Source: a virus (taxonomy: Duplodnaviria > Caudoviricetes). Taken from it: 64,000 bases of DNA. The position numbers and the translations under genes are program-made. Position 1 is the stretch's first letter, and each line of letters begins with the position of its first letter. The stretch is taken from positions 1-64,000 of IMG/VR virus record IMGVR_UViG_3300025390_000003; one strand, given 5' to 3'. Positions 14,690 through 51,633 of the stretch are shown piece after piece. Under the pieces are notes generated by a model, which saw only the letters and a program-made list of their open reading frames with translations, searched no databases and was not told the origin of the DNA.

Positions 14690-15295
14690 ATGTCTACATG
14701 TAATTATACAACCCTAATAAATGATACTGATTGTATTGGTGATTCGAGAATTGTAATTAATACCAATTTCACTAATTTAGATAATGCGCTCTGTAATGTT
14801 TATAATCCATTTGTGGGTATGGTAGTTGCATTTCCTTCAACTATAGCACCCACAGGATTTTTAAAATTAAATGGAGCAACTATTAATAGAACCACATATA
14901 GTAATTTATGGAATTTTGCACTATCTAGTGGAAATCTTGCTACAACAGAAACAGAAAAATCTTTATCCGCTTGGGGGAAATTTGGGCCGGGGGATGGGGC
15001 AAATACATATACACTTCCTGATTTGAGAGGGGAATTTATTCGTGGTTATGATGATGGTCGCGGCATAGATTTAAGTAGACTAATTGGAACATGGCAAGTC
15101 GATATGTTTAAAAGCCATATTCATAGATTGTTCTCATATTCATTAAACAATTCTCCTGATGGTGCAGTTCCTGTAGAACCTTTATTAACAGAAAATTACA
15201 TATACAATACTTGGGGAGGGTTGCAAATAGAAGCTACTGGAGGAGTGGAAACTAGACCTAGAAACATTTCATTATTATATTGTATAAAATATTAA
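14690..15295 (+). CDS. Short tail fibre with phage tail collar domain and shared N-terminal anchor motif
   Basis: 'APTGFLKLNGATINRTTYSNL', 'LPDLRGEFIRGYDDGRGID', 'ETRPRNISLLYCIKY'. Confidence 0.85.
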   Translation: MSTCNYTTLINDTDCIGDSRIVINTNFTNLDNALCNVYNPFVGMVVAFPSTIAPTGFLKLNGATINRTTYSNLWNFALSSGNLATTETEKSLSAWGKFGPGDGANTYTLPDLRGEFIRGYDDGRGIDLSRLIGTWQVDMFKSHIHRLFSYSLNNSPDGAVPVEPLLTENYIYNTWGGLQIEATGGVETRPRNISLLYCIKY

Positions 15296-15687
15296 TGAAA
15301 ATTTATAATTACCATAAAGCCTCTGGAGAATATATCAATCAAGATATTGCTGATGAATCCCCATTAGAACAAGGAGTATATCATATTCCTGCTTTTGCAA
15401 CCACTATAACTCCTCCTGAATATAATTTAAAAACACAAAAAATATTTTTTATTAATGGGGAATGGAAAATTGAAAATATGTGCAGTTCATCTATAACATG
15501 GGAACAAATTCGTATAAAACGCAACAATATATTAAAAGAAACTGATTGGACACAACTTATTGATTCACCAGTAGATAAACAACAATGGTCTGCATATAGA
15601 AAGGAATTGCGAGATATAACAAAAAAATTCACTAATCCTTCTAATGTCATTTGGCCCGAGATTCCAAATTCAACAATAAGTATTTAA
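15295..15687 (+). CDS. Tail fibre assembly chaperone (Tfa-like); start probably 15295
   Basis: 'MKIYNY...GEY...IPAFAT...PP', 'RIKRNNILKETDWTQL.D...W.AYRKELRDI...VIWPE.P'; TAATG overlap with the collar gene. Confidence 0.85.
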   Translation: MKIYNYHKASGEYINQDIADESPLEQGVYHIPAFATTITPPEYNLKTQKIFFINGEWKIENMCSSSITWEQIRIKRNNILKETDWTQLIDSPVDKQQWSAYRKELRDITKKFTNPSNVIWPEIPNSTISI

Positions 15688-15688
15688 A

Positions 15689-16966
15689 ATGGGATATGGT
15701 AATTATAGTTTAAACAATGCAGCAAGCGATCCTAATACTCTAGGTGATCTTATAGACATTCGTTGTGGGAAAGATGCGCCAGCAATGCGTAACATCATTT
15801 TTGGGTCTTCTACATTTACTTTATCAGGACAATCAACTCAAGCCAAATCTTTGATGTCTAGTGGTAGTATCGATAGTTCAAATGCGATAACACCAGAAAA
15901 CCATTTATTATTAACACAAAAGTATGCAGCATTAACACAAATAGCAACACAAAATCATGTGATACAACCACAAACGGAAGATAGTGTTAATGATACAAAA
16001 ATAACAAGAACCCCTGTTGTTGCGCCCACTACAATAGAAACAAATCTACACGATGTAACAAAACCAGTTTCCCCCTTTATAGGATCAACTTTAGGAACAT
16101 TAACCGGAGCATCAAGAGGAGCAACAGGATCAGGAATACCTAGTATTGTTCATACATTTTTAGAAAGAACAGATACAAAATCAGCAATCGGATTAGGTGC
16201 AGCATATCAATCAGTGAAGATTGATGAAATGTCTAAATTACCATCTTCGGTTATGGGCAGTATCGGTGCAATTACAAATACAGCCGGAACGCTATTAAAT
16301 GATGTGTATGCTGGAACACAAGCTGCAATACAAATAACAAATAGACTAAAAACCAATCTAATAGTATTAGTAGAAAAAACTGCATTTGCTGCACTAGATA
16401 CATTTATTCCATCGAGTGTTATGATATCTTTCGGGAATTTTAATATATCATTATCAGTATCATTAGATGGATTATTAGAAAAAAACCTCAATAAACTCAC
16501 TAGTTCAGAAAAATTTAATAACGCATTTGATTCCGCAACAAAACAAATCACTGATGTATTAAAAACACCACAAAAACTAATACAACAATTTATAGTTCCA
16601 CATTTAAACGCTGGACAATCCAGACTACATAACCCAACTGCGGCATTCGATAAATTATTACCACCAGATATTCATGCGTCCATTAATATCGCCGCAAATT
16701 CTTCTAATGTTGGATTAGGTGGAGATGGTGGAGGTTCTTTGTTTACGAAATTAGAAACATCATTAAAAGGAACGGTAGTAGATGGAATAATGAAAAATTA
16801 TTCATTACATATAAATTTAATGCCACATATGTTTAAAAGTGGTAAACCAATTCAACCATCTACATTTAGTATTGGATATAGACAATCTAGTTATCCTACT
16901 AGCACAACATTTAATGGAGAAGTATATCGACAACCGGATTATATACCAACACCAATATTATATTAA
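15689..16966 (+). CDS. Hypothetical baseplate-associated protein
   Basis: 425-aa ORF directly upstream of gp5; no motif recognised. Confidence 0.5.
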   Translation: MGYGNYSLNNAASDPNTLGDLIDIRCGKDAPAMRNIIFGSSTFTLSGQSTQAKSLMSSGSIDSSNAITPENHLLLTQKYAALTQIATQNHVIQPQTEDSVNDTKITRTPVVAPTTIETNLHDVTKPVSPFIGSTLGTLTGASRGATGSGIPSIVHTFLERTDTKSAIGLGAAYQSVKIDEMSKLPSSVMGSIGAITNTAGTLLNDVYAGTQAAIQITNRLKTNLIVLVEKTAFAALDTFIPSSVMISFGNFNISLSVSLDGLLEKNLNKLTSSEKFNNAFDSATKQITDVLKTPQKLIQQFIVPHLNAGQSRLHNPTAAFDKLLPPDIHASINIAANSSNVGLGGDGGGSLFTKLETSLKGTVVDGIMKNYSLHINLMPHMFKSGKPIQPSTFSIGYRQSSYPTSTTFNGEVYRQPDYIPTPILY

Positions 16967-16969
16967 CAT

Positions 16970-18895
16970 ATGAAAGAATATTACGGAAATTATTTAGGTA
17001 TAGTAGTATCAACTCAAGACCCTGAAAGTAGAGGAAGAGTTAAAGTATACATACCACACATCATGCCAGTGTTAAACCAAAATCTTTTAAAATTATTTGG
17101 TGATCAAGCAGAAGATATTATTTCATTTAATGCTGTTGGTGGAAACCTATCAAATGGGATGCCAGAAAATGCTAGATTGTATTTAGAAAAAATATTACCA
17201 TTTGCAGAACCCGCTTCACCAATTATAGGTGGTTCTTCTCCTGGTGTATTAGACTCTATTGGAAATTTCTTACAAAATGCCATTGGTGGGGGGAGTTATG
17301 ATAAAAATGCCATTGGTGCTGGAAATACTGGTGTAGTCGCGCAACCAAGCCAAAATAATACATCACCAAATAATCCAAGTAACGGTAAATTGGATAAAGC
17401 AAATCCATCGCAATTAGTTCCTATTGGTGGTGGACATTATTTAAATCCTTATGTTGCAGAAAAATGGAAGGCATTAAAAGCTGAAGCGGATGCAGCAGGA
17501 GTAAAAATTTCTGTTACTGACTCATATAGAACTTATGCAGAACAAGTTGATGTCGCACAAAGAAAAGGTATATATGGAAAGGGTGGATTGGCAGCAACTC
17601 CAGGAAGGTCTAATCATGGACTTGGTAAAGCATTAGATTTGGAATTTAGTGGAATGACTGGATATCAATGGATGTTAACAAATGCTCCTAAATACGAATT
17701 CTCGCAAATACATCCCAATATACCTTATGGCAATTCAGAATTTTGGCATTGGCAAATCCCTTCTGCACCCATGACTTCTTCAGCAGTAAATACACCTGAA
17801 GCACCACCAGTAAATAATAATGTCGCTGCATCGCCACCCCCACCAGAAGCAAATTTGGATAGTTCCGCAGCTACAGACAATTCAAAAATGTCTGATGGTT
17901 CCGCAACCCCTGTAACAACTACTCCATCATCCACACCACCCGCTCCAGTGACCTCTACTAGCCCTTTTGGTAGAATCACCTTATATGGGTATGAAAAGAA
18001 AGGACAAGCTGATTACGACACAAATTCTGCAAACGGAATAGGTATACAAAATATAAAATTAGTTCCCAATACAAGTTTCGCAGTTTCACCAGATATAGAA
18101 TCATTATTTAGAGCAAACGGAATTGCACCAAAAGATACCGTTCAATTATCTTTGGGAAATGGAAATATAATATCAGGAACTTGGGATGATCGAACAGCAA
18201 AGAATTTATCTGGAAGATTTGATATTTATAGTCCATCAAAAGACTATCCACACATAGATCAACCAGTAATGGGATTTGGGAAAGGGGATGGTGCTATGGT
18301 AACATCCTCTGCACAAGTAATGACAACTACTGATGTTGCTCCTGCTCCTTATGACACAACAAACGTACCAAAAGGGGTATTTTGTATTCCTGCAATTGGT
18401 GCTTTATTATGGTGTTTCTTTAGAGAAGGAAACCCACTATTTCCAGTTTATTTTGCCGCATCATATAGAAGTTCAGAATGGAGTGGTGCATACAAATCAG
18501 CTAGTCCTGGAATTGGGTTTGATCCTTCTTTAATGGGGAATGATACCATAAACAAAACTAGTTTATTACCAAACAAAGGTGGTGGTATAATTTCAACTGA
18601 AGGAAAGGATTTACATGAAGTGTCATTAGTTTCATTTGCTGGAAGTCATTTAAAATTTAGCGAAAACCATACTATGTTATATGCTGCTGATGATTTTCAT
18701 GCACAAACTGATGGTAATATATTCAATATTGGATTATTAAACAGAGAAACACACACTAAAGGAATTGATAATACTGTAATAAATGGAGATTGTTATATAA
18801 AAGTTGGAAATGTGACGGATTCTAGTGTCCATGATGCAATAAATACAATTGAAACATTAATAGGAGAAATAAACAACGAAATGTTGAAACCATAA
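16970..18895 (+). CDS. gp5: Baseplate hub/spike gp5 N-terminal part with inserted M15 peptidase and 3D/DPBB-like domain
   Basis: OB-fold 'YLGIVV..QDPESRGRVKVYIP' resumes at 'GVFCIPAIGALLWCFFREGNPLFPVY'. M15 motifs: 'SYRTYAEQ', 'SNHGLGKALD', 'EFWHW'. Confidence 0.85.
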   Translation: MKEYYGNYLGIVVSTQDPESRGRVKVYIPHIMPVLNQNLLKLFGDQAEDIISFNAVGGNLSNGMPENARLYLEKILPFAEPASPIIGGSSPGVLDSIGNFLQNAIGGGSYDKNAIGAGNTGVVAQPSQNNTSPNNPSNGKLDKANPSQLVPIGGGHYLNPYVAEKWKALKAEADAAGVKISVTDSYRTYAEQVDVAQRKGIYGKGGLAATPGRSNHGLGKALDLEFSGMTGYQWMLTNAPKYEFSQIHPNIPYGNSEFWHWQIPSAPMTSSAVNTPEAPPVNNNVAASPPPPEANLDSSAATDNSKMSDGSATPVTTTPSSTPPAPVTSTSPFGRITLYGYEKKGQADYDTNSANGIGIQNIKLVPNTSFAVSPDIESLFRANGIAPKDTVQLSLGNGNIISGTWDDRTAKNLSGRFDIYSPSKDYPHIDQPVMGFGKGDGAMVTSSAQVMTTTDVAPAPYDTTNVPKGVFCIPAIGALLWCFFREGNPLFPVYFAASYRSSEWSGAYKSASPGIGFDPSLMGNDTINKTSLLPNKGGGIISTEGKDLHEVSLVSFAGSHLKFSENHTMLYAADDFHAQTDGNIFNIGLLNRETHTKGIDNTVINGDCYIKVGNVTDSSVHDAINTIETLIGEINNEMLKP

Positions 18896-18896
18896 C

Positions 18897-20216
18897 ATGA
18901 GCAATAAAAGAACCATACCATGTCCAAGTTGTAGCGGGAAAATTTTAGAAAACAAAAAAGAAAAATCTTTTTTAGAAATGATGAAAGGTGCAATAAAATC
19001 TCCTGTATTGCTTCTTAAACTCGTTATTACCCCACCTAGACAATCCAATATAATAGATAAAAAGACTATTTATAAAGGTGCTTGCCCTGATTGTGGAGGA
19101 ACGGGAACTTTTATCGATCCTACGGACACTAACCAGCAAGAACAAAAAGCAGTAGAAGTTGCACAAAAAAATGCGTCTGCTGTAATGGACGCTGAAGCAA
19201 AATTAAATACAGGAGGATTTACCAATTCAAGACATATATCAGTTTTAGGAAATCAGGTTGTAGAAATTGGTGTAGGATTCAATAAATTAAAATCATATGC
19301 TGTAGTTGAAGGCGCAAAACCAGTAAAAGCTAAAATTAATATTGGATCAGGAGGAACGACAGGAGGAACAGCAAAAACAAACCAAATAAATGCGACGAAT
19401 CCTTTAGCAACTCCGGGTGGACAATACTATATAAAATGTAGTAATAAGTTTACTCTTGTTGCTGGTGCTCAAGGAATAGAATTGAATACATCCGGCAATT
19501 TAAACATTGCTGGAGGTATAACAAAAATTACTGGTGCTGAAATGAACATCGGATCAAGTATAGGAACAACAACTATAGAAGGAAACCATTTAAAATTAAC
19601 TGGAAAAACTATAGAATTAACTCCTGCAAATGGAAGTTCTACTGGTCAAGTGCAAGTAAATGCAACATTAGGTGTTGATGGTAATATGATAGTATCTGGT
19701 GGAGCACATATTGATGGAGAATTACATTTCATTTCTGCTACTACTACAAGACTCGACCCAAAACCTACTAGCTTTGGTGCATTGCCATTTGAAACTACTG
19801 GAAAAGCACAATGGGGAGGAACACCAAAAGAAGCATCTAAATCTGCTATAAAAGATTTACAAACAGTGGTAAAAGAATTTATCAAAGACCCTAGTATGTT
19901 TATGTCAACTCCAAGAGGAGCAAATATGTTAGCAGAAAGGATGTCGCATATTGCATACACACTATCATCTCCAGTTCCAGTGGGATATGTCGGATCAGGA
20001 ATTTATGGCAATTCTACTGTGTATGTTTATCCACATCATCACACAATGCCAGAAACCGCACACGTTCATTCAATGGATTTACCAAATATTAAATTGTTTG
20101 ATACTGATAAACAGGTAAGAGAACAAGCATCTGATTGCCAAAAACCTCATCCAGTTCCTACCGTTAATGGTGGATTATCAATATTAACGAACTACGGTAA
20201 AAGCATGATAGGTTAA
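18897..20216 (+). CDS. Probable spike C-terminal (beta-helix/tip) protein with CxxC zinc finger
   Basis: Follows gp5-N. It has CPSCSG and CPDCGGTG, Gly-spaced beta repeats, and a late HHH..HVH cluster. Confidence 0.6.
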   Translation: MSNKRTIPCPSCSGKILENKKEKSFLEMMKGAIKSPVLLLKLVITPPRQSNIIDKKTIYKGACPDCGGTGTFIDPTDTNQQEQKAVEVAQKNASAVMDAEAKLNTGGFTNSRHISVLGNQVVEIGVGFNKLKSYAVVEGAKPVKAKINIGSGGTTGGTAKTNQINATNPLATPGGQYYIKCSNKFTLVAGAQGIELNTSGNLNIAGGITKITGAEMNIGSSIGTTTIEGNHLKLTGKTIELTPANGSSTGQVQVNATLGVDGNMIVSGGAHIDGELHFISATTTRLDPKPTSFGALPFETTGKAQWGGTPKEASKSAIKDLQTVVKEFIKDPSMFMSTPRGANMLAERMSHIAYTLSSPVPVGYVGSGIYGNSTVYVYPHHHTMPETAHVHSMDLPNIKLFDTDKQVREQASDCQKPHPVPTVNGGLSILTNYGKSMIG

Positions 20217-20644
20217 GAACTAAAAACCCTTACATATTCGTGCATCAGTTTTTTTGTTAATTCTTTCCTGCTATTATCATCATCAATAACAGATTCAGGA
20301 ATACTTGCAATCATCTGTATTAAATTTATATAACCTTTATATTTTTTATCATCATATTTCCCAATATTATTAGTAAATTGTGATTTATAAATATCTTCCA
20401 CTTTTAATTTAGGAGAGCTATATACAGCATTTAACACACTTTGTTGTAATTTGTTCTGTATGTCAACTATATCATCTTTTTTAGTTTCTATATCAAAATC
20501 TTCTGGTATTTCCACTGAGCTTAACATAGGAAATTCATGATTCTCACCAAAGACATCAAGTAACAATTTATCCCAAGGATGTATATTATCTTTAGAAAGA
20601 GTATCAATACTATCATTAATATCTTTCAATTCATTATTATCCAT
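20213..20644 (-). CDS. Hypothetical protein
   Basis: 143-aa ORF filling the space downstream of phoH. Confidence 0.6.
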   Translation of the reverse strand: MDNNELKDINDSIDTLSKDNIHPWDKLLLDVFGENHEFPMLSSVEIPEDFDIETKKDDIVDIQNKLQQSVLNAVYSSPKLKVEDIYKSQFTNNIGKYDDKKYKGYINLIQMIASIPESVIDDDNSRKELTKKLMHEYVRVFSS

Positions 20645-20662
20645 ACAAGTAATTAACTAACT

Positions 20663-21457
20663 TTATATATTATGTTTCATTTTTTCTTCTCTTAATTGCT
20701 TGAACTTTTTATTTACAAACTTACAAATTTCTGATCTTACAATATCATCTTCATCTAACTCCACACAATGAATCCCAACATCTTTAGAATCTTGTGCATT
20801 AAACAAATCATAAACTTCTTGAAATCCAGATTTTCCGTATGGTAGATCACTTTGGTCTGGATCGCCACATAATATAACTTTGGAATATTGTCCGATTCTG
20901 CTCAATAATGTAAATATTTCTCTTACCGACATATTCTGTAATTCATCAGCACATATAAACTTTACAGAAAAATGTAATCCCCGAGCAAAGTTAATAGGGC
21001 ATATAGTAAGTCTATTATCCTTTTCTAATTTAGAAATTTCAGACTGTGACAATAACTCTTCTAATTTATCTCTAAATGGAGCCATATAGTAAGAAACCTT
21101 ATCTGACATACTTCCAGGTAAGTATCCCAATTTAGAATCCGAACTTTCAACTGCTGATCTAACCAAAACTAAATCAGACACCTTTCTTAAATTCAACAAT
21201 TGCAATCCCAAATACATCGCCAACATAGTTTTACTAGTTCCTGCAACTCCTTTCATAAACAAGATTTTGGTATCTTTATCTAAGAATATATTTATTATAT
21301 ATTTTTGTTTTTCTGTCCAAGGTAATTCTTTAATATTTAAATCATAACTAATTTTAGGACTTTGATGAACATACGGAGAGTTATCCGTTTTTGTTTTATT
21401 TTCTAATGTTTTAGTTTCCGTCGCTTTACTCTTTCGAGCAGATTTCTTGGTAGACAT
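20663..21457 (-). CDS. phoH: PhoH family ATPase
   Basis: 'GVAGTSKT', 'LGYLPG', 'FARG', 'DELQN', 'LSRIG..SKVILCGDPDQSDL', 'DIVRS'. Confidence 0.95.
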   Translation of the reverse strand: MSTKKSARKSKATETKTLENKTKTDNSPYVHQSPKISYDLNIKELPWTEKQKYIINIFLDKDTKILFMKGVAGTSKTMLAMYLGLQLLNLRKVSDLVLVRSAVESSDSKLGYLPGSMSDKVSYYMAPFRDKLEELLSQSEISKLEKDNRLTICPINFARGLHFSVKFICADELQNMSVREIFTLLSRIGQYSKVILCGDPDQSDLPYGKSGFQEVYDLFNAQDSKDVGIHCVELDEDDIVRSEICKFVNKKFKQLREEKMKHNI

Positions 21458-21557
21458 ATATAATATAAGTTTATTCTTACATTACTATTTATTAAAACTT
21501 TCATAAATTAATACACCAAACAAGAATATTTTATTACAATATTACTAAATAAATAAA

Positions 21558-21716
21558 ATGAGCCTAAAACATCACGAAATAGAAGCAATAGTCGAAGAAA
21601 TTGTAGACTATATAACAGACGAAATTCAAACCCATTTCAGTAAAGAAGCGGATATAAATTATGCACTTGATTTTCTACTAAGCAAAGTAGAAAAATTAGA
21701 TGTTGATGATTTTTAG
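21558..21716 (+). CDS. Small acidic hypothetical protein (52 aa), not in the ORF track
   Basis: MSLKHHEIEAIVEEIVDYITDE... preceded by TAAATA; fills the gap between neighbours. Confidence 0.6.
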   Translation: MSLKHHEIEAIVEEIVDYITDEIQTHFSKEADINYALDFLLSKVEKLDVDDF

Positions 21717-21717
21717 G

Positions 21718-22290: not shown

Positions 22291-22328
22291 TATATTTAAC
22301 TTATGGTGATAAATATTACAACAATAAG

Positions 22329-23735: not shown

Positions 23736-23739
23736 ATAT

Positions 23740-25035: not shown

Positions 25036-25064
25036 TCAAAATTTCATCTATAAATATTAATAGT

Positions 25065-27593: not shown

Positions 27594-27624
27594 ACTAATA
27601 GATTTTTATTAATAAATAATACAA

Positions 27625-31062: not shown

Positions 31063-31083
31063 TACGATAAATAATACAAATAT

Positions 31084-31593
31084 ATGGCATGTTCAATCGT
31101 TCAATCTATAGCATCTACAGAATGTGTAGGAAATTCATTAGTAAAAATTAATGGAAATTTTTCGGCATTGGAAACTGCTGTATGTGAATTACAGAACAGT
31201 TCAAATATTCCAGTTGGTGGAATTATAATGTATTCTGGATCATTATCAAATTTCACTTTAGGCGTTGGTACCACTCCTGATCTTATTAATTTTGCACTTT
31301 GTGATGGAACTAACGGGACACCAGATTTGCGCGACAGATTTGTATTGGGATCAACAACTACTATAGCAGTTTCTGGTGGTTCATCAACTACAACTTTAAC
31401 AATAGATCAAATACCTCCACACCAACATAGCCAAGATGGTAATAATGCATGGGGAGTCGGAACTGGTTCTGGTAACGGAAGTCCCGCACTTCGTCAAGGA
31501 TATGGTGGTTCTACTGGATGGACTGGTGGAGGACAACCATTTAGCATAATGCCTCCATATTTAAAATTAGCATACATAATGAGGATAGTATAA
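31084..31593 (+). CDS. Short fibre with collar-like domain and shared anchor motif
   Basis: 'IPVGGIIMYSG', 'LCDGTNGTPDLRDRFVLG', 'HQH', 'MPPYLKLAYIMRI'. Confidence 0.8.
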   Translation: MACSIVQSIASTECVGNSLVKINGNFSALETAVCELQNSSNIPVGGIIMYSGSLSNFTLGVGTTPDLINFALCDGTNGTPDLRDRFVLGSTTTIAVSGGSSTTTLTIDQIPPHQHSQDGNNAWGVGTGSGNGSPALRQGYGGSTGWTGGGQPFSIMPPYLKLAYIMRIV

Positions 31594-31596: not shown

Positions 31597-32154
31597 ATGA
31601 GCAATTGTGGATTTACATCATTAATAGACATAAATTCTTATCTTGGAGACTCGTTACTAACTATTAATAACAATATGAGTTCTCTTGATATTAATTCATC
31701 GGACTTATACACATTACTAACATTTTTAACGGGTGAAGTGTTAAAATCTAATAATACAATATTGTCTACGGATAATATTATTACTAGTATGGTATTATCC
31801 GCAATTATTGGAACAAAATTTTGTCTTATTACATCAACCGGAACATTATTAACAAGTATAAGCGCAGATTTTGTAAATAATACAAACTATCAAATTGAAA
31901 CATTTACAATACCAAATTCTATATATAACGACACAACAAAAATCGCCACTAGTGCAAGTTTATTGATATTCAGCACTACTATATCATCAACACCTTCTGG
32001 TTATAATAATTCTATACTATTTACTATAGAAGGTATTGGTGGAGTCACAAAGTTCATACTACCAAAAAACCAAACATATAACTATTCTTGGTATTTCAAA
32101 AATAATATAGGAATAACAGAAATCTCTAACATTTATTTGATAGGATATATATAA
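31597..32154 (+). CDS. Short fibre-like protein with shared anchor motif
   Basis: N-terminus 'LIDINSYLGDSLLTINNNMSSLD'. Confidence 0.6.
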   Translation: MSNCGFTSLIDINSYLGDSLLTINNNMSSLDINSSDLYTLLTFLTGEVLKSNNTILSTDNIITSMVLSAIIGTKFCLITSTGTLLTSISADFVNNTNYQIETFTIPNSIYNDTTKIATSASLLIFSTTISSTPSGYNNSILFTIEGIGGVTKFILPKNQTYNYSWYFKNNIGITEISNIYLIGYI

Positions 32155-32158: not shown

Positions 32159-32827
32159 ATGAGTAATTTAAATTTAACACAACAAATACAAGAAACTATG
32201 TGTATTGGTGATTCATTACCAATATTAAACAACAATTTTACGAATTTAGATAACATAACATGCAATCTTAGTTCTATTTCATCTTCTATTATTACTAATA
32301 TAACTGCATTAGGAAATCTCTTCTCGACTAATATATCAGGAATAACTAATCTATTGAACAATGCAGTAGTTGGAGTATCCGCAACAGGAATTACATCACT
32401 ATCATCGACTATTAATATGTTTAGTAGAACTATGGTAAGTGTAAGAGGATCAACTCAATGTTATATGCCTAATGATGCATATCCTTTTGTGGGATATACT
32501 GGAACCATAACACTACCAACAAATGTTCCAAATACTGCAAATTATATTATTTTACGAGCGAATATTTCCGACCAAAGTTATGTTGATCTATCACAAGTAA
32601 ATAGTCACGATGCGCCAGCAGAATTCAAAATCAATGGATATACAATCCCTGTCACAAAAAATCCTATCTCAACACTTAATGGCGCATCGTATATAATGTT
32701 ACCAAAACAAGCATTATACACTTGGAATTGGAGGTTTTTTTATACACAATCGATAACTACAGGATATTGCACACCAATGTCTTGCGTGAATACCCCATTT
32801 AATGTAGAAATTATTGGATATTTTTAA
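32159..32827 (+). CDS. Short fibre-like protein with shared anchor motif
   Basis: N-terminus 'IQETMCIGDSLPILNNNFTNLDNITCNL'. Confidence 0.6.
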   Translation: MSNLNLTQQIQETMCIGDSLPILNNNFTNLDNITCNLSSISSSIITNITALGNLFSTNISGITNLLNNAVVGVSATGITSLSSTINMFSRTMVSVRGSTQCYMPNDAYPFVGYTGTITLPTNVPNTANYIILRANISDQSYVDLSQVNSHDAPAEFKINGYTIPVTKNPISTLNGASYIMLPKQALYTWNWRFFYTQSITTGYCTPMSCVNTPFNVEIIGYF

Positions 32828-32874
32828 TACAACAAACAAAAAAGATACAAAAAGAGATAAATAATATTATAACT

Positions 32875-37094: not shown

Positions 37095-37124
37095 AACCTT
37101 ATTTATGTAATGAACTACAATATA

Positions 37125-42438: not shown

Positions 42439-42467
42439 AATATTTCAATTATTTAATGTAGAAAATC

Positions 42468-45400: not shown

Positions 45401-45473
45401 TATCTACAAACCTAAAATCCGTCGCATAGATAAATCCTACATTATCAGAAGAAAGTGTAAAATTTGCAATCAT
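42468..45473 (-). CDS. Baseplate wedge (gp7-like) protein with PKD and beta-propeller domains
   Basis: 'WDMGDG...HVYNYPGVYNVTL'; 'DKDRNIWV/DRNGDVWV/DKQNDIWV' blades; C-terminal 'DIDTC...LQSLA' sheath-anchoring-type motif; follows gp6. Confidence 0.65.
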   Translation of the reverse strand: MIANFTLSSDNVGFIYATDFRFVDTSSSDVVKRIWDMGDGNFVYNEIDFTHVYNYPGVYNVTLSGFDSSNNSSTQNIELTAKSYVDDFITFSKLPKSYGLAGKPTDTPFVIYLQTFQVDKPLVVNLFAADSKSIPYSQIPSKWNFINPTWRFTTDDLGLNTVENLELSGSPIYLTVDGKTTIVGMSAEASVYYVDSIGSGKPTVDCPLLISATLQTSGFSYPNDSNIYDYNSFANSKVSRAVTVWQVGVSFPNFMRVTGNYIDEIYSRNWTDVKIPTMITLHSYGREYNFGGDIETASQSNIVFTYPETNAIGQLSSIYFALSTSTGMIPISCEDAPLYFTTTDENGFNNNSGYKFTTINSSSAFDTVSIYVSTTINNVSAGTYNFAYPTNLAPNFFVIVPTPDIGSVSKIAYTPQPVSGACPVVDYYRDNGLLIEGTVDKFTVPILSSNNTFNYSISGFSGIYGLAIDPYNFDIIAVDGEQDAIYKFSSYGELLSTLNLSSVFDDNIPSVSGTTPSYISLDKDRNIWVSLYNSLSVLKFDNNLNLLFSITPSEIGIYEDDYLMKPPVVETDRNGDVWVTYSNPNSSTMVKYSSGGLIMHTISLSSNSVPTNIVVDKQNDIWVTESFNSTISGGLIEKYSTNGVLMSSISGINRPVYIALDRDNNPWFSFGVRSFGYVDRLSGNVKTWSLTPVYFNNSNNVRNIITPAFESDFDGMEDEEIGGLAVDVYNRVWVIDAITNNAYIFNADSSFDGVQGLKVINAKRSPNILYYLSDDNTTVDVLSSNYAKSASVTGDWTGNVWYQKYASDSTEFINISGVSVPFSINNFNNSYEIRKVNESFDLAAYMKSLAFPEVLYNNTKMFDEFLPAVVGDAGSSNDNTFEDIGKMLYEKIANFNTNVSDIDTCEISQLQSLAAEIDQSNFTYGVDFPTDIQNMLDLASISKYKLWGNQISGVNVNNIIDWDSPYTTLDRTLSADWYADNGIIETIFNYLLTKNLWVDVQ

Positions 45474-45475
45474 AA

Positions 45476-47305
45476 TTAATAACCTAAAAATCCTTTATTG
45501 GTTTGTGTTGGTTGTATAACGATTTTATTTGCCAGATTATTATAATCAAATAGATATGGATATTCAAACAACCTAAACTGCATATTATTTGAAGTTTGTG
45601 TTAAATCTATTGTAGAATAATCAGGGTTCCATACAAACAAAGACAAACCTTGGAATAATACATCACTATCCACTCTTCCAGTATAGAAAGTATGCACACC
45701 ATCTATTTCTAATATTTTTTGTGTTATGATTTTTATATCCAATGTCTGTCCAAGTGTAATACTAGTTCTATCAAAATAATCTTTAAACACCCCAACTACA
45801 TCATTAACTATTGCAACATTATCTCTATTAGAATTTGGAGACTTACTAATATATAATCTACTAACACTTTCATCCGTCACTACAAAAGGATCGCCAATAT
45901 TGTATATACCAATTGCAACCGCTTTATACACTGGATCAGCATAAGCAATTTCCGCAGACATACATTTAGATGGTTGTATTGATGTGCTTATTAACTCTTT
46001 CTGTGCTGGTAATAAGTAAGATAAAGTTATATTATCCGTAGTTTTTGGCACCACAAATAAATATACATTATTAAAATTGCAAGCATCCGAAAATTGAATC
46101 TGATTAAATAATGCTCTACTAGACATTGTAGGATCGGTTAATCCCAAATCATAAAAATATTGTAAATATTCTGTAGTATATACCCAATTATTAACCACGA
46201 CAACATCTGAAATCAAATTCGCAAAATTTGTTTTTATAAACTTTGTATAATCCGCTTCATTTATTAGTCTATACTGACTTCTAAAAATTGCTGGAGCATT
46301 TTCTCTTATTTCATCCGCAGTTTCTACATCTTGTATAGGAGTTGATGCAGTATAGTTTGTAATTTTAACATTTGATAGATCATTATTTGATATACTATTC
46401 AAATAACTATTATTCAAAACATCCGAAAGAATTTGTGTGAACTGTGCGGTATTAAAAATTTGTGGCGAGGCATTTTTTAACGCTTGCTGACCAATAACTC
46501 CAGTGGTTCCATCACTTTTTAAATAATACAAAGCAACTACATCCCCTTCTTGCAGTTTTCTACCATTAATATCATTACCGAAAACTATTTCATATTGTTT
46601 ATTACCATTCAAACGGATTTCATATTTTTCCGCATTGCTACTTTCTAGATATAAATTAATAGTTTTTGTATATTGCACCCATGTTCCTGTAGTATATGGC
46701 TTGACATACACATCAACATTAAAATGATCAATATTAGTTCCAATTGGTGGAGATAATAACACAAGTTCATTACCTTCTCCTGTTGCGGTATATATTGGAT
46801 ATTCTTGGTATGATCCCTGAAACAACAAAGTTTGATTACTTAAATCGTCTAGTCCTTCAGTTACACCTGATAATGTCTTCACAAATGTAGCTTCAGTATT
46901 AAACGAAAATTTTACATTATTAACACTAACATACGAATATCTTGGTATCGTGTATATTCCTGCATTTAACTTCCCGACAGTAGCAGAGAAAGATAATGTA
47001 GATGTTTGATATCCTATTGGATTATAGTCTAACAATTTTACAATTCTATTTATATTCTCATAAAGTTGTGCTTCTGTAAACATAGATTCAGAAGCAGTTC
47101 TATTTAGATAATAAATTAATGTATTGAAAGAATATGCAACAATATCTATTATAGATGCTAAATTACTACCAATATAGTTTTGGTCTGTAAATACTTGTTT
47201 ACTATTAAGTCTATCGATAATCAATTGTCGTAATGAAGTGGCATCAAAAGCGGCATATCCACCTTTTGGTATATCGAAATTATTAAAATTGTTTATTGTT
47301 GACAT
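45476..47305 (-). CDS. gp6: Baseplate wedge subunit gp6
   Basis: 'D.NY.GSNL..IID..AY', 'ESMFTEAQLYEN', 'LLDYNP', 'FGNDING', 'ET.DEIRENAP..F.SQYRL...DY'. Confidence 0.9.
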   Translation of the reverse strand: MSTINNFNNFDIPKGGYAAFDATSLRQLIIDRLNSKQVFTDQNYIGSNLASIIDIVAYSFNTLIYYLNRTASESMFTEAQLYENINRIVKLLDYNPIGYQTSTLSFSATVGKLNAGIYTIPRYSYVSVNNVKFSFNTEATFVKTLSGVTEGLDDLSNQTLLFQGSYQEYPIYTATGEGNELVLLSPPIGTNIDHFNVDVYVKPYTTGTWVQYTKTINLYLESSNAEKYEIRLNGNKQYEIVFGNDINGRKLQEGDVVALYYLKSDGTTGVIGQQALKNASPQIFNTAQFTQILSDVLNNSYLNSISNNDLSNVKITNYTASTPIQDVETADEIRENAPAIFRSQYRLINEADYTKFIKTNFANLISDVVVVNNWVYTTEYLQYFYDLGLTDPTMSSRALFNQIQFSDACNFNNVYLFVVPKTTDNITLSYLLPAQKELISTSIQPSKCMSAEIAYADPVYKAVAIGIYNIGDPFVVTDESVSRLYISKSPNSNRDNVAIVNDVVGVFKDYFDRTSITLGQTLDIKIITQKILEIDGVHTFYTGRVDSDVLFQGLSLFVWNPDYSTIDLTQTSNNMQFRLFEYPYLFDYNNLANKIVIQPTQTNKGFLGY

Positions 47306-47308
47306 ATA

Positions 47309-47818
47309 TTATAAATTGTTTTGTTGTTGTATTACTACAAAAGATTGACTTTTAACATTGAATACAAAAGAAGATTGTACTGATGATATATTCAAAACTG
47401 GTATTTCCATCGTAATAGTTATTGTATATTGATTATCATCAGGTTGCGCTATTACATTTATATTTAATATATTTACTCTTGGTTCGTAAATAGCGACTTT
47501 ATTAAGTATTGTATTGCCGATTAACGAAGCTGTAGTTTCTGTAATTGGCTGAAATAAATAATATTCCAGATTCATTCCATACTCTGGAAATAAAAAACGT
47601 TGTCCAGGAAGTGTAGAAAACAAATTTTGTAATGAGTTTTCAATAGCTGCAACATCTTGACTTTGTTTTATATCTGCACCAATAATAGGATTTGGATATA
47701 TCACACCATTTGTCAAGGTTTTAGAAAATACCAAATCTAAGTATAAATCTCTGTAAAGAGTGTTATACTGAGTCTTTGTATTTGATATGTTTTCTAAACT
47801 TTTTATACGGATTGCCAT
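47309..47818 (-). CDS. gp25: Baseplate wedge subunit gp25 (start probably 47818)
   Basis: 'YRDLYLDL', 'AIENSLQNLFST.PGQRFLFPEYG..L..YLF', 'YEPRV'. Confidence 0.9.
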   Translation of the reverse strand: MAIRIKSLENISNTKTQYNTLYRDLYLDLVFSKTLTNGVIYPNPIIGADIKQSQDVAAIENSLQNLFSTLPGQRFLFPEYGMNLEYYLFQPITETTASLIGNTILNKVAIYEPRVNILNINVIAQPDDNQYTITITMEIPVLNISSVQSSFVFNVKSQSFVVIQQQNNL

Positions 47819-47869
47819 ATTATCTATATTATTTATTATAAAAATTGCTAAATAATAACACAAACAATT

Positions 47870-48415
47870 ATGAATACGAAATTTGATCTATTATACGAGA
47901 ACATGTTAGGAAGATATCAACAAGGAGGATATATTGTTGGTGATAGAGTAAGATTCTCAAAAGATGCGTTAAAACACCCTTCTATGAAGGATAAAGCAGA
48001 AGGATTTGTCAATCTTATCAAATCATGTATGGATGATGGATTTGATAAGATATTGAGAATTAGTGCATTAAAAAGTATACATCCTACTACAACTTCCGGC
48101 AACTTTCGTGGGGGAACAGAAGCACCTAGCGATATTTACGCGGATATTGTTATCGAAACAAATCCCGGACTATATGTATCTCCTATGACAGTTTCAGTTG
48201 GTATGTTAGAACTGCAAGATGATCAAGATGGAAGAGGTCCCGTTCCTGATAGTCTAAAAAGAAAGGAAAAATTAAACTATCCAGAGAAAGGAAAAGCTAA
48301 AAAGACTGATGGCGATGAAGACGAACACCTTAATAATGCAACCAAAAATACAAAATTAGACCACGGAAATAAGTGGGACGATAAAAAACCTGGTGGCGGA
48401 AATTTCAAAGCGTAA
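47870..48415 (+). CDS. Hypothetical late protein, possible head-internal protein
   Basis: TAAATA at 47849, N-terminus MNTKFDLLYE, own terminator. Confidence 0.6.
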   Translation: MNTKFDLLYENMLGRYQQGGYIVGDRVRFSKDALKHPSMKDKAEGFVNLIKSCMDDGFDKILRISALKSIHPTTTSGNFRGGTEAPSDIYADIVIETNPGLYVSPMTVSVGMLELQDDQDGRGPVPDSLKRKEKLNYPEKGKAKKTDGDEDEHLNNATKNTKLDHGNKWDDKKPGGGNFKA

Positions 48416-48433
48416 TCAAACAGCTTAAACATA

Positions 48434-48477
48434 GAAAACAAAAAATCTCAATATTATGTTGAGATTTTTTTGTTTTC
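48434..48477 (+). terminator. Terminator hairpin overlapping the nrdJ -35 box
   Basis: aaaaaatctcaa / ttgagatttttt inverted repeat. Confidence 0.75.
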
Positions 48478-48486
48478 AGGTATAAT
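48459..48486 (+). promoter_or_regulatory. Sigma70-type promoter TTGAGA-16-TATAAT for nrdJ
   Basis: Near-consensus boxes; the -10 box ends 56 nt upstream of the ATG. Confidence 0.6.
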
Positions 48487-48542
48487 TAATTGTTACAAGA
48501 GGTTGCAAAATAAATGCAATCACAGTAACAATAATTTTAAAT

Positions 48543-51125
48543 ATGTCAACAAAATCAACAACAGATGTGTTCACGAATGATTTTTCTCGTGAAATATGGG
48601 CAGATACGTATAAAGCAAATAAAGATAATACAATTTATGATTCATTCCGAAGAGTTGCAAATGCAATAGCTTCTGTAGAAGATGTAGAAAAACAAAAATA
48701 TTGGGAAGATAAATTTTATGATTTGTTGCTAGATTTTAAATTTGTTCCTGGAGGAAGGATATTAGCAAATGCAGGAACCGAATTCAAAGGAACGTCACTT
48801 ATTAATTGTTTTACTGGTGGTCATGCTACTTACGATTGCGATTCTATAGACGGTATTATGGAAGCACTTCGGTATCAAGTAAAAACATTAAAAAGCGAAG
48901 GGGGATATGGCGACAATTATTCTTTTATTAGACCAAGAGGAGCATTCATAAAAGGAATTGGAGTTGAATCTCCTGGCCCAATAAAATTCATGGAAATGTT
49001 CGATAAAAGTTCTGAAATTATTACTGCGGGGTCTGGTGAAGAAGCGAATAACAAAAACGCTAAGAAAAAAATAAGAAAAGGCGCACAAATGGGTATAATG
49101 GATTGTGTTCATCCATCTATTGAAGAATTTATTACAGCAAAACAAACTGAAGGAAGATTAACAAAATTTAACCTATCCGTAAATTTTAGCGATGAATATA
49201 TGGACAGGATCATTGAGATTAATAGGCTCGAAGAACTTGAACAAACAGAGGATATAAAGAACCAAATCACCAAAATGGACAAATGGGACTTGTGGTTCCC
49301 CGACACCACATTTGAAAAATATAAAGAAGAATGGGATGGGAATTTCAAATTATGGAAAGAAAAGCAATATCCATATAATGTGTATAAAACAATCTCTGTT
49401 AAAGGATTATGGGATTTAGTGATGAATTCTACATATAAAAGGGCAGAACCTGGAGTATTATTTCTTGATGTTGCAAACAAAACACATTGCTGGAATTATG
49501 CAGGAACAAGATCATGGATTTCTAGCACTAATGCATGCTCTGAACAAACGATGCCACAATTTTCAAGTTGTGATTTAGGAACCATAAATTTAACACAATT
49601 TATAAACAAAACCAAAACAGGGTTTGATATAGAAAAAATTAAAAAATCTGTAAAAATCGCCGTTCGGTTTTTAGATAATGTAAATTCATATACTACAGCA
49701 CCACTACCACAATATATGGATTCTATAACAAATCGTCGTAGAATAGGATTGGGAGTTATGGGTTGGGGGTCTTCTTTATATATACTCAAAACAAAATTTG
49801 CATCAGGAAAGGCGGAAAAAATAAAAGAAGAATTGATGCATGCCTTTACTGAAGCGGGTATTGAAGAATCTATTAATCTAGCAGAAGAAAAGGGTATGTT
49901 TAAAGATTGCGAACCTGAAAAACATGCGAAAGCATATTTTTGGGATCAGATTAACTTAAACCAAGAGTTAAGAAACAAAATGAAAAAATACGGAATTAGA
50001 AATTCTGCACTATTTTCCTGCCAACCTAATGGGAACACTTCGATATTAGCAAATATTATAACTGGTGGAATCGAGCCATTATTCTTACACTCATATATTA
50101 GAACATCTATCGTTAACGTATTACCAGAACATATACGAGAAGTATGCCCGAAATATTGGACGGGTGAATTTATCGAAACCGAATTGTTCAAATTTGTAAA
50201 AGAAGGATCGGATACTATTCTTAGGGGAGTAGATTCTGATGGAACTGTGTATAAAATCGATAAAAATAGAGGGCTTACCAAGGAAACTTTATGTGAAGAT
50301 TATGGGGTTAGTATACTCAAAAACGCCGGAGAATGGAACGAAAATGCTGACTATGCGGTTACAACATCAAATTTAACAGTAGAAGAACATTTAATAGATT
50401 TACGTGGTTGGGGGAAATGGTTAGATGCGAGTTGTAGCAAAACTGTAAATATACCAAAAGATTATAAATTTGAAGATTTTAAAAATGTATATTTAGATGC
50501 GTATAAATCAAAAGTATTAAAGGGTATCACAACATATCGAGCAGGTATCATGACGAATGTATTGGCTGCTACTACTAACGGAGAAGACACCACAAATTCA
50601 ATACCAAAACCAACCGCACCAAAAAGAGGAAAAAGACTTAATGCGGATATGCACCACATAACCATTAAGGGGAATAGATATTATGTTGCTGTTGGATTGA
50701 TGGACGGAATGTTATATGAAGTTTTCACTGGTAGTAATCATAATCACGAAGGGGATATAATCATCCCCAAAACCGTTAAATCAGGAATAGTGGTAAAACA
50801 CGGAACAGGAAAATATGTGTTCATCAGTGAAGATAAGGAATATTCATTAACGAATGGGCATAATGACCCCACTGCGGATGCCCTTACCCGAATGATTTCC
50901 ATAGGACTTCGGCATGGAGTTGAAATTAGTAATATAGTAAAACAATTAGAAAATACTACAGGGGATATGTTCACATTCTCTAAAGTATTATCAAGAACGT
51001 TAAAGAAATATATTAAAGATGGAACAGTTGTAGATGGAGAAAAATGTCCAACATGCGGAGGTAATATAATCAGAATGTCGGGTTGCTATACTTGCATGGA
51101 TTGTGGATATAGTAAATGTCAATAA
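48543..51125 (+). CDS. nrdJ: Class II (adenosylcobalamin-dependent) ribonucleotide reductase
   Basis: 'FVPGGRILANAG', 'LINCF', 'RKGAQMG', 'EPGVLF', 'TNACSEQ', 'CDLGTINL', 'RRIGLGVMG', 'SKTVN', 'KGITTYR'; C-terminal TSCPD-like domain and zinc ribbon; no beta-subunit gene adjacent. Confidence 0.9.
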   Translation: MSTKSTTDVFTNDFSREIWADTYKANKDNTIYDSFRRVANAIASVEDVEKQKYWEDKFYDLLLDFKFVPGGRILANAGTEFKGTSLINCFTGGHATYDCDSIDGIMEALRYQVKTLKSEGGYGDNYSFIRPRGAFIKGIGVESPGPIKFMEMFDKSSEIITAGSGEEANNKNAKKKIRKGAQMGIMDCVHPSIEEFITAKQTEGRLTKFNLSVNFSDEYMDRIIEINRLEELEQTEDIKNQITKMDKWDLWFPDTTFEKYKEEWDGNFKLWKEKQYPYNVYKTISVKGLWDLVMNSTYKRAEPGVLFLDVANKTHCWNYAGTRSWISSTNACSEQTMPQFSSCDLGTINLTQFINKTKTGFDIEKIKKSVKIAVRFLDNVNSYTTAPLPQYMDSITNRRRIGLGVMGWGSSLYILKTKFASGKAEKIKEELMHAFTEAGIEESINLAEEKGMFKDCEPEKHAKAYFWDQINLNQELRNKMKKYGIRNSALFSCQPNGNTSILANIITGGIEPLFLHSYIRTSIVNVLPEHIREVCPKYWTGEFIETELFKFVKEGSDTILRGVDSDGTVYKIDKNRGLTKETLCEDYGVSILKNAGEWNENADYAVTTSNLTVEEHLIDLRGWGKWLDASCSKTVNIPKDYKFEDFKNVYLDAYKSKVLKGITTYRAGIMTNVLAATTNGEDTTNSIPKPTAPKRGKRLNADMHHITIKGNRYYVAVGLMDGMLYEVFTGSNHNHEGDIIIPKTVKSGIVVKHGTGKYVFISEDKEYSLTNGHNDPTADALTRMISIGLRHGVEISNIVKQLENTTGDMFTFSKVLSRTLKKYIKDGTVVDGEKCPTCGGNIIRMSGCYTCMDCGYSKCQ

Positions 51126-51132
51126 CTGAAAA

Positions 51133-51168
51133 TGCGCACCCAATGAATCTATATTGATTGGGTGCGCA
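51133..51168. terminator. Hairpin between convergent genes
   Basis: tgcgcacccaat / attgggtgcgca 12-bp inverted repeat. Confidence 0.7.
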
Positions 51169-51198
51169 AAGCGGTTCTGGTGGAAAATGTGAGCTTGT

Positions 51199-51633
51199 TT
51201 AATAACCTAAAACAAACCAACTTATACCACCCGCAGAAAATGGGTCTACATTAGCATTCTGTATTTGTATCGACAGATTTGTTTGTGTGGCATTAGTAAT
51301 TATTTGAACCCAAGTATCATCAGCATTACCAACATTACCAACACCAGGAGAACTCTTTATCCACGTTGCTTGTTGATGAATACAAGCATTAGGAAAAACA
51401 ACGGGAAACGAAACTGTTACAACATTTTGACTATTATATATTAATGGTGTTTCACCCCACTGCATTATCAATCCACTACCAAATGTTTGATACCCAACAG
51501 AAGAAAGTGACGCACTACCACTCAATTGATGTATGAGATTGTCGAAATTGTTAGCATTAAAATTTATAGAAGACAACGAAGTTCCTATGCATTCCGTTGG
51601 CTGAATTGTAACTGTTCCGTAATAATTGCTCAT
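51199..51633 (-). CDS. Short fibre with tail-fibre C-terminal tip domain and shared anchor motif
   Basis: 'GYQTFGSGLIMQWG...VSFPVVFPNAC...WFVLGY'; N-terminus 'IQPTECIGTSLSSINFN'. Confidence 0.75.
   Translation of the reverse strand: MSNYYGTVTIQPTECIGTSLSSINFNANNFDNLIHQLSGSASLSSVGYQTFGSGLIMQWGETPLIYNSQNVVTVSFPVVFPNACIHQQATWIKSSPGVGNVGNADDTWVQIITNATQTNLSIQIQNANVDPFSAGGISWFVLGY

What the first reader, a model, noticed from the sequence alone, without database searches (positions are those of the whole stretch)
14690..51633. Plug-in fibre system: five dispersed genes share one N-terminal anchor but carry unrelated tip domains
Seen: ORFs at 14690 (INDTDCIGDSRIVINTNFTNLD..C), 31084 (IASTECVGNSLVKINGNFSALE..C), 31597 (IDINSYLGDSLLTINNNMSSLD), 32159 (IQETMCIGDSLPILNNNFTNLD..C) and 51633 minus (IQPTECIGTSLSSINFNANNFD) begin with the same ~30-aa motif I-x4-C-[IV]-G-x-S-L-x2-I-N-x-N-F-x2-L-D, then diverge. 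The tips are a collar domain with its own Tfa chaperone gene, a second collar type, two related beta domains ending IGY, and a 'GLIMQWG' fibre tip. Established: the collar and GLIMQWG tips are standard in long fibres of unrelated phages. Inference: a short trimerising adaptor has repeatedly captured foreign fibre tips. This would give a set of shaft-less, interchangeable receptor-binding heads that dock at a common virion site, possibly locked by the conserved Cys.
Basis: partly seen in the sequence, partly recalled or inferred. Interest (0 to 1): 0.8.

Follow-up and report, generated by a model that had tools for sequence, protein, structure and literature searches.

The report
Shared docking tag on phage fibre heads
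Five small genes of an uncultured T4-like phage start with the same ~38-residue segment and end in different tail-fibre tip domains; this unannotated tag heads hundreds of metagenomic fibre proteins whose tips have been swapped, a new example of a familiar way for phages to change what they bind.

Summary
Five ORFs share a ~38-aa N-terminal module, and there are no others in the 128-kb genome. Each copy is recovered by a profile built from the other four (E 4e-13 to 1e-4; background at least 0.06).

The tips are a Collar domain with its chaperone, a reduced collar type, two related beta-sandwich tips, and Gp53-like_C.

A profile of the module finds 675 protein clusters among 1.84 billion. It almost always starts at residue 1, on proteins of about 130-911 aa with very diverse tips. 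It has no Pfam or clear PHROG family and no tblastn match in GenBank phages.

Tip swapping is direct. P0005 and a 518-aa relative are 86% identical up to residue 39 and unrelated afterwards.

Models show an extended arm followed by a helix with a clean heptad core. Cys4 and Cys35 are kept or lost together.

The module weakly resembles the N-terminus of T4 gp10 (hhalign P 9e-5).

Three tandem copies form a conserved set in the gp9-wac slot upstream of gp13/gp14. Two other loci are hypervariable.

"One common site, interchangeable heads" is not supported; distinct sockets are more likely. Virion location and trimer state remain inferred.

This is a new variant of a known kind. The scan noted analogous tags in other phages, but not this module.

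The parts
14684..15295 (+). P0001: N-module (14690-14809) plus Collar-type receptor-binding tip, 201-203 aa, no shaft
   Evidence: the likely true start is the ATG at 14690, by family consensus
15280..15687 (+). Tail-fibre assembly chaperone (Tfa / Phage_tail_APC) for the P0001 tip
   Evidence: phrog_4912 E 2e-17; PF16778 62 bits; the same pairing follows the 832-aa P0008 at the syntenic locus
31084..31593 (+). P0002: N-module (31084-31200, C-V-G-N-S-L subtype) plus reduced collar-type tip with HQH
   Evidence: orthologue P0153 in L090
31597..32154 (+). P0003: N-module (31597-31716, S-Y-L-G-D-S-L subtype, lacks Cys15 and Cys35), helix, beta tip ending IGY
32159..32827 (+). P0004: N-module (32159-32278), helix to about residue 71, beta-sandwich tip 79-221 ending IGY
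   Evidence: tip weakly resembles the Bdellovibrio Bd2133 fibre tip
51199..51633 (-). P0005: N-module (51514-51633, I-G-T-S-L-S-S-I-N subtype, Cys15 only) plus Gp53-like_C tip
   Evidence: the syntenic gene in relatives is 509-530 aa with an unrelated tip
31066..31075 (+). Late-promoter-like GATAAATAAT 9 nt upstream of P0002
   Evidence: RATAAATAAT occurs 12 times against 4.5 expected; 0 of 100 shuffles reach 12
51639..51648 (-). Late-promoter-like GATAAATAAT upstream of P0005
32875..34509 (+). gp13-like (by position) and gp14-like neck genes directly downstream of the triple; they define the T4 gp9-gp10-gp11-gp12-wac slot
   Evidence: phrog_679 head closure Hc2 and PF11649; T4 gene order
45476..47863 (-). 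gp6 and gp25 baseplate wedge genes; in relatives the P0005-type locus lies next to them
   Evidence: phrog_219 and phrog_261; loci L001-L074
16970..18895 (+). gp5-like hub/spike (OB domain plus VanY peptidase) downstream of P0001 and its chaperone

Best explanation
The five genes encode small, probably trimeric, late-expressed virion proteins of a distant T4-like myovirus. Each is a ~38-residue N-terminal docking module followed almost directly by a receptor-binding tip. The module is an extended arm (residues 1-15) plus the first turns of a coiled-coil helix with core residues L20, I23, F27, L30, V34 and L37. I propose that the module plugs each head into the baseplate periphery, in the way the related N-termini of T4 gp9 and gp10 seat those trimers on gp7, while the tips contact the host surface. 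P0002-P0003-P0004 would be a conserved core set with dedicated sockets. The P0001 and P0005 loci would be hypervariable slots where recombination just after the module exchanges tips, chaperone included. Shown: the module, its spread, its N-terminal position, tip diversity and tip swapping, synteny, and arm-plus-helix models. Inferred: trimer state, virion location, docking partner, and a Cys4-Cys35 disulfide.
For: The module is real and there are exactly five copies. Its profile finds 675 clusters at E<=1e-3 and 67 at E<=1e-10 among 1.84e9 representatives. The match starts at residue 1 in nearly all of the top 150, on proteins of about 130-911 aa. Pfam on 139 members gives Collar 16, Gp53-like_C 3, Peptidase_S74 2, Rax2 propeller 2, Gp10_C 2, CBM_4_9 2, then RCC1, pectate-lyase-like, Kelch and H_lectin, with most members unassigned. 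The tips fall into 47 single-linkage groups among 152 proteins. Swapping: P0005 and P0113 are 86% identical over residues 4-39 and unrelated afterwards; P0081 and P0096 are 97% identical in the module and unrelated beyond about residue 64; only 15 of 37 pairs with at least 80% module identity have related tips. The neighbours are structural genes: gp5-like hub, gp13/gp14 neck, gp25/gp6 wedge. A late-promoter-like motif sits upstream of P0002 and P0005 as it does upstream of the gp13-like neck gene. AF2 models of P0004 and P0001 give an extended arm and then a helix (16-71 and 18-43), with pLDDT about 80 in the module. The only PDB sequence look-alikes are trimeric coiled-coil HR1 segments. gp10 link: hhalign P 9e-5, with module 16-38 aligned to gp10 13-39, and 0 of 200 column shuffles reach the score (26.7 against a maximum of 21.5). 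In T4, gp9 and gp10 share an N-terminal region and the N-terminal domain of gp9 binds a gp7 domain (PMC3004832). The conserved ordered triple recurs in L090 and G002. Multi-copy clusters occur at the wedge-proximal locus in L080 and L089. Cys4 and Cys35 are both present in 134 members, both absent in 12 and discordant in 5.
Against: There is no direct evidence that any of these proteins is in the virion or is a trimer. PF07880 does not match the five proteins or anything else in the genome. An HMM-to-sequence search does not retrieve gp9 or gp10, and T4 gp9 alone does not align at its N-terminus, so the gp10 link rests on 23 aligned columns. The one member that carries PF07880 (P0020) matches only the beta-domain part, and that domain is itself mobile and joined to many other N-termini. 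Three relatives with 45-55% gp6 identity have no module in 80-123 kb, so it is not a core baseplate feature. The swap statistics come from 50%-identity cluster representatives, which over-represent divergent tips. The Cys co-variation is not corrected for phylogeny.
Confidence: 0.6

Rival explanations
1. One reading: all five heads compete for one common socket and are interchangeable, giving mixed or switchable virions.
For: The same invariant residues (I10, G17, S19, N24, N26, L30) occur in all five and across the family. Copy number at the wedge-proximal locus varies from one to four, as expected if new heads can be added without a new socket.
Against: The tandem triple keeps its order and its module subtypes in relatives. 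Paralogous modules are 38-53% identical, while orthologous ones are 81-86%. In the T4 precedent, gp9 and gp10 sit at different places in the wedge: gp9 binds one gp7 domain, and gp10 contacts gp7 while carrying gp12 on its N-terminal domain (PMC3004832).
Confidence: 0.15
2. They are neck, collar or head fibres (fibritin-like whiskers or decorations), not baseplate proteins. The module would then anchor to gp13/gp14 or to the capsid.
For: P0002-P0004 lie immediately upstream of the gp13-like and gp14-like genes, which is also the slot of wac in T4. P0003 and P0004 have a ~50-residue helix before the tip, like a mini-fibritin. Fibritin is known for a conserved N-terminus and swapped C-terminal domains (PMC3797505, abstract). 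P0001 lies near gp23.
Against: There is no similarity to the wac N-terminus (hhalign score 12.2, and elsewhere in wac). The Collar and Gp53-like_C tips are tail-fibre or baseplate tip types. P0005-type genes sit next to gp25/gp6 in relatives.
Confidence: 0.12
3. They are capping adhesins that bind the distal end of a long fibre or of one of the giant structural proteins (gp38-like logic), or they dock on each other to form a branched complex as in CBA120 or RaK2.
For: The proteins are small, with conserved N-termini and variable C-termini. The large neighbours (842, 1145, 1001 and 1561 aa, with PKD, NHL or lectin-like parts) could carry them. Branched multi-RBP systems assembled through conserved N-terminal domains are established (PMC10253068).
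Against: There is no D1 or XD domain; the module is only arm plus helix. Family members themselves reach 911 aa, with a shaft between module and tip, which does not fit a cap.
Confidence: 0.08
4. They are not virion parts: soluble lectin-like or host-surface-modifying proteins that merely share a leader-like N-terminus.
For: No proteomic evidence; most tips have no family.
Against: The identified tips are fibre-specific. A fibre chaperone gene follows P0001. The genes lie in a late structural gene context. There are no signal-peptide features.
Confidence: 0.05

Closest known systems
T4 gp9 and gp10 (Pfam PF07880 T4_gp9_10_N): two different baseplate trimers with a shared N-terminal region; the gp9 N-terminal domain binds gp7
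   Same: Several different trimers of one T4-type baseplate share an N-terminal segment. The signature G-D-x-L ... K-I-N-x-N-F-x-x-L lies at the extreme N-terminus (hhalign P 9e-5). The genes sit upstream of gp13/gp14. Both are arm-plus-helix starts.
   Different: There is no PF07880 match and no following gp9/gp10 beta-sandwich. The module has three conserved Cys and lacks 4 residues present in gp10. The proteins are 144-222 aa heads rather than structural adaptors. There are five copies, with swapped tips.
Branched multi-RBP systems: CBA120 TSP1-4 and Klebsiella phage RaK2 gp526-534 (PMC10253068)
   Same: Many receptor-binding proteins in one genome are assembled through conserved N-terminal domains, some of them T4 gp10-like. 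The C-terminal parts are exchanged horizontally.
   Different: Their anchors are ~110-aa D1 domains (helix plus six-stranded sandwich), XD domains or triple-beta-helix domains, on large depolymerase tailspikes. Here the anchor is a 38-aa arm plus helix on mostly tiny proteins of uncultured T4-like phages.
P2/Mu-type fibre tip plus Tfa chaperone cassettes; T4 gp12 receptor-binding domain
   Same: The P0001 tip (Collar) and its downstream chaperone are of this type. The tip has tblastn matches in 656 GenBank phage records. Weak fold matches go to the A-1(L) fibre and T4 gp12.
   Different: In those fibres the tip ends a long shaft. Here it follows the anchor after about 5 residues.
T4 fibritin (wac)
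   Same: Conserved N-terminal anchor, coiled coil, swapped C-terminal domain; same genomic slot.
   Different: No sequence similarity; no foldon; much shorter.
Bdellovibrio Bd2133-type chimeric fibre tips (PDB 8ok3, 8ond)
   Same: Best structural match of the P0004 tip (VIA Z 6.8, rmsd 3.4 A, 98 residues; Foldseek E 1.4e-3). Also a coiled-coil fibre with a variable tip.
   Different: The score is middling and may reflect only a common sandwich arrangement. It is a bacterial predator fibre, not a phage protein.

Membership tests
T4_gp9_10_N (PF07880) | Profile match above the gathering cut-off | tested here: not met
   No hit in the five proteins at E<=0.1 and none anywhere in the genome at E<=1. 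T4 gp9 and gp10 as positive controls score 247 and 212 bits.
T4_gp9_10_N (PF07880) | N-terminal helix signature shared by gp9 and gp10 at the extreme N-terminus | tested here: inconclusive
   hhalign of module against gp10 N-terminus: P 9e-5, probability 59-82%, 23 columns; 0 of 200 column shuffles reach the score. gp9 alone does not align, and HMM-to-sequence searches fail.
T4_gp9_10_N (PF07880) | Beta-sandwich domain following the helix | tested here: not met
   Absent from the five proteins. Present in member P0020 (residues 51-113 on profile 71-139, 25.6 bits), but that domain is mobile.
T4_gp9_10_N (PF07880) | Binds the gp7 wedge protein | not testable with these tools
The candidate gp7-like protein has 1001 aa.
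Phage tail collar fibre tip (PF07484) with Tfa-type chaperone | Collar profile match and an adjacent chaperone gene | tested here: met
   P0001 scores 48 bits against a cut-off of 24. The next gene matches PF16778 at 62 bits and phrog_4912.
Gp53-like_C (PF21882) | Profile match above the cut-off at the C-terminus | tested here: met
   P0005 residues 52-144 score 52.1 bits against a cut-off of 24.9.
CBA120/RaK2-type branched tailspike anchors | N-terminal D1 (helix plus six-stranded sandwich, about 110 aa), XD or AD domains | tested here: not met
   AF2 models show only an extended arm plus one helix before the tip. No matching Pfam hit.
Fibritin (wac) | Sequence similarity to the wac N-terminal anchor; C-terminal foldon | tested here: not met
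   hhalign score 12.2, at wac residues 362-390 only. Only the genomic slot matches.
Trimeric coiled-coil fibre proteins (general kind) | Heptad a/d hydrophobic pattern; homotrimer | tested here: inconclusive
   Heptad core L20, I23, F27, L30, V34, L37 in the consensus; helix in the models; look-alikes are trimeric HR1 coils. Oligomer state was not tested.

The most novel reading that the evidence does not exclude
The 38-residue module is an ancient, portable 'plug' derived from the gp9/gp10 N-terminus. It is stabilised by a Cys4-Cys35 disulfide that clamps the N-terminal arm to the coiled coil. It would let one T4-type baseplate carry five or more different receptor-binding trimers and gain new ones by a single crossover after residue ~39, making it a natural minimal tag for mounting arbitrary binding domains on a myovirus baseplate.
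Probability: 0.25. Interest if true: 0.6.

Novelty: new variant of a known kind. Interest (0 to 1): 0.45.

Why it matters
Receptor-binding proteins of uncultured aquatic T4-like phages are mostly unannotated. A short, very recognisable N-terminal signature (consensus M-S-x-C-N-x-T-x-x-I-x-x-x-E-C-I-G-D-S-L-x-x-I-N-x-N-F-x-N-L-D-x-x-x-C-x-L) flags at least 675 protein clusters as likely virion-mounted binding heads. It also marks the exact junction at which tips are exchanged. This gives a handle for cataloguing host-recognition diversity in metagenomes and for studying how a baseplate accommodates many different heads. If the docking is confirmed, it also offers a compact natural mounting tag. 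The principle itself, a conserved anchor with a swapped tip, is textbook.

Tried and rejected
Trimer state and docking are therefore untested.
With P0004 alone it found no relatives in IMG/VR.
3. The search for homologous proteins on residues 1-40 of P0004: returned only the query itself, a limit of the word index.
4. tblastn of two module variants against 50,697 GenBank phage records at E up to 10: no match. The profile against T4 and cyanophage S-ShM2 found nothing.
5. Collinearity argument through P0020 (module plus PF07880 beta domain): downgraded, because that beta domain also occurs behind collagen-like and other N-termini.
6. PDB sequence search with the module: only coronavirus HR1 coiled-coil look-alikes, taken as analogy and not homology.
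7. Paired upstream partner idea (176-aa ORF before P0001 against 174-aa ORF before P0005, and against the L080 neighbour): no similarity.
8. Exact T4 late promoter TATAAATA: not enriched (14 matches against 20.8 expected). The variant RATAAATAAT is enriched.
9. Foldseek on the P0004 and P0001 monomer models: no match at E<=1e-3, only weak fibre-type rows.
10. Literature searches and the pelagimyophage paper: no description of this module found. This is a limited search, not proof of absence.
11. Source annotations of 10 family members: unnamed or 'hypothetical protein'.
Full report
SETTING. The window is the first half of a single 128,251-bp viral contig with about 31% G+C. It is a distant T4-like myovirus. 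The major capsid protein (8992-10446) is about 35% identical to cyanophage gp23. Other T4-type genes are a portal carrying an intein, a gp5-like hub, gp6, gp25, a gp14 neck protein and the gp44 clamp loader. No close cultured relative exists in the GenBank phage collection. The exact P0004 protein is encoded on 23 metagenomic contigs that were read, so the phage recurs in nature.

OBSERVATION. All five ORFs and their shared N-terminus are real.
- An HMM of the five N-termini finds these five and nothing else in the whole genome.
- Leave-one-out profiles recover each omitted copy at E 4e-13 to 1e-4, against a background of 0.06 or worse.
- A profile built from 151 relatives gives the same five.

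THE MODULE IS A LARGE, UNANNOTATED FAMILY.
- The 40-column profile matches 675 cluster representatives at E<=1e-3, and 67 at E<=1e-10, among 1.84 billion proteins. The match begins at residue 1 in nearly all of the top 150. Complete-looking members range from about 130 to 911 aa.
- The consensus is M-S-T-C-N-F-T-Q-T-I-D-E-T-E-C-I-G-D-S-L-V-K-I-N-N-N-F-S-N-L-D-T-A-V-C-E-L.
- G17 is invariant. I10, S19, N24, N26 and L30 are conserved in 146-150 of 151 members. Cys4, Cys15 and Cys35 are conserved in 90-94%.
- Pfam has no family for it. P0003 and P0004 match no PHROG at all. Sources give no names. Two module variants find nothing by tblastn in 50,697 GenBank phage records.

TIP DIVERSITY AND SWAPPING.
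- Pfam on 139 members finds Collar, Gp53-like_C, Peptidase_S74, Rax2, Kelch and RCC1 propellers, CBM_4_9, H_lectin, pectate-lyase-like and Gp10_C. Most members have no family.
- The C-terminal parts fall into 47 single-linkage groups.
- P0005 (144 aa) and P0113 (518 aa, with RCC1-like repeat motifs) are 86% identical over residues 4-39 and unrelated afterwards.
- P0081 and P0096 are 97% identical in the module and diverge after about residue 64.
- Of 37 pairs with at least 80% module identity, only 15 have related tips. These are 50%-identity cluster representatives, so the fraction is biased; what matters is that such pairs exist.

LOCI.
- Triple locus. The P0002-P0003-P0004 triple lies directly upstream of the gp13-like and gp14-like neck genes. 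In T4 this is the slot of gp9-gp10-gp11-gp12-wac. The triple recurs in the same order and with the same module subtypes in L090 (184, 173 and 205 aa) and as a tandem triple in G002.
- P0001 locus. It lies downstream of gp23 and upstream of the gp5-like hub gene. The syntenic locus in another contig holds an 832-aa module protein plus chaperone.
- P0005 locus. It lies between the clamp loader and RNR/gp25/gp6. In relatives this locus holds one to four module genes of 91-911 aa.
- The system therefore has a conserved core of three genes and two hypervariable slots. 'Shaft-less' is a trait of this phage, not of the family.
- Three relatives with 45-55% gp6 identity have no module in 80-123 kb at full HMM sensitivity. 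The distribution is patchy.

STRUCTURE.
- AF2 monomer models of P0004 (pLDDT 70.6) and P0001 (65.0) give an extended arm (residues 1-15 and 1-17), a helix (16-71 and 18-43) and then the tip.
- The consensus has a clean a/d heptad: L20, I23, F27, L30, V34, L37.
- The only PDB sequence look-alikes are trimeric HR1 coiled coils.
- The P0004 tip is closest to the Bdellovibrio Bd2133 fibre tip, with middling scores. The P0001 model weakly matches the A-1(L) fibre and T4 gp12.
- Cys4 and Cys35 are both present in 134 members, both absent in 12 and discordant in 5. This suggests a disulfide that clamps the arm to the helix. It is an inference and is not corrected for phylogeny.

LINK TO T4 gp9/gp10.
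- T4 gp10 begins with ...D-D-G-T-G-D-Y-L-R-K-G-G-I-K-I-N-E-N-F-D-E-L, and gp9 has ...G-D-I-L-F-D-G-G-N-K-I-N-S-D-F-N-A-I.
- Profile-profile alignment of the module against gp10 N-termini gives P 9e-5 over 23 columns. None of 200 column shuffles reaches the score.
- In T4, gp9 and gp10 share an N-terminal region, and the N-terminal domain of gp9 binds a gp7 domain (PMC3004832).
- PF07880 itself does not match. The apparent collinear bridge, P0020, is weakened because its beta domain is mobile.
- I rate true homology at about 40-50%. The functional analogy stands either way.

EXPRESSION. RATAAATAAT is enriched (12 matches against 4.5 expected). It lies 8-19 nt upstream of P0002, P0005, the gp13-like gene and two other structural ORFs. 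This fits T4-type late transcription.

VERDICT. This is a real, statistically secure, widespread and so far undescribed N-terminal docking module on modular fibre heads. The general principle is well known from T4 gp9/gp10, fibritin, P2-type tip cassettes, and the CBA120 and RaK2 systems (PMC10253068). What is specific here is the module itself, its five dispersed copies, and the near-absence of shafts in this phage. Virion location, trimer state and docking partner remain to be shown.

Noticed in passing
module positions 5-7 and 26-28 (e.g. window 14702-14710 and 14765-14773 in P0001): Two N-x-[ST] sequon-like triplets are frequent in the module. C-N-[FYL]-T occurs in about two thirds of 151 members, and N-F-[ST] in about half. 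Another note on this genome reports a 12-gene glycosyltransferase island. Whether virion heads are glycosylated is pure speculation.
   Followed up: no
G002 (loci L075-L079): All five module copies of this relative lack both Cys4 and Cys35, whereas copies in the window are mixed (CCC, CCC, C--, -CC, -C-). Loss across all paralogues of one lineage hints at a shared cause such as the partner or redox conditions.
   Followed up: partly
L080 12253-12747 and L089 14263-14745: An HSP20 small heat-shock gene sits inside or next to the module-gene clusters of two relatives, beside a Phage_tail_APC chaperone in L080.
   Followed up: no
window 3083-5425: The T4-type portal gene (gp20) carries an intein splicing domain (PF14890) after about residue 390.
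   Followed up: no
window 16970-18895: The gp5-like hub protein combines the OB injector domain with a VanY-type D-Ala-D-Ala carboxypeptidase domain instead of the T4 lysozyme domain.
   Followed up: no
window 14058-14067, 27611-27620, 31066-31075, 32856-32865, 51639-51648: RATAAATAAT lies 8-19 nt upstream of structural gene starts and is enriched (12 against 4.5 expected). It is probably this lineage's late promoter core. The canonical TATAAATA is not enriched.
   Followed up: partly
proteins P0276-P0306: The small beta domain with the motif A-D-T-S-[AG]-G-x-F-T-I-T-L-P (the beta part of PF07880) is itself a widespread mobile tip. It is found behind collagen-like repeats and several unrelated fibre N-termini.
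   Followed up: partly
window 14615-14683: A strong hairpin followed by a T-run (a terminator-like site) lies between the 176-aa ORF and P0001, which then has its own TAAATA just before the ATG.
   Followed up: no
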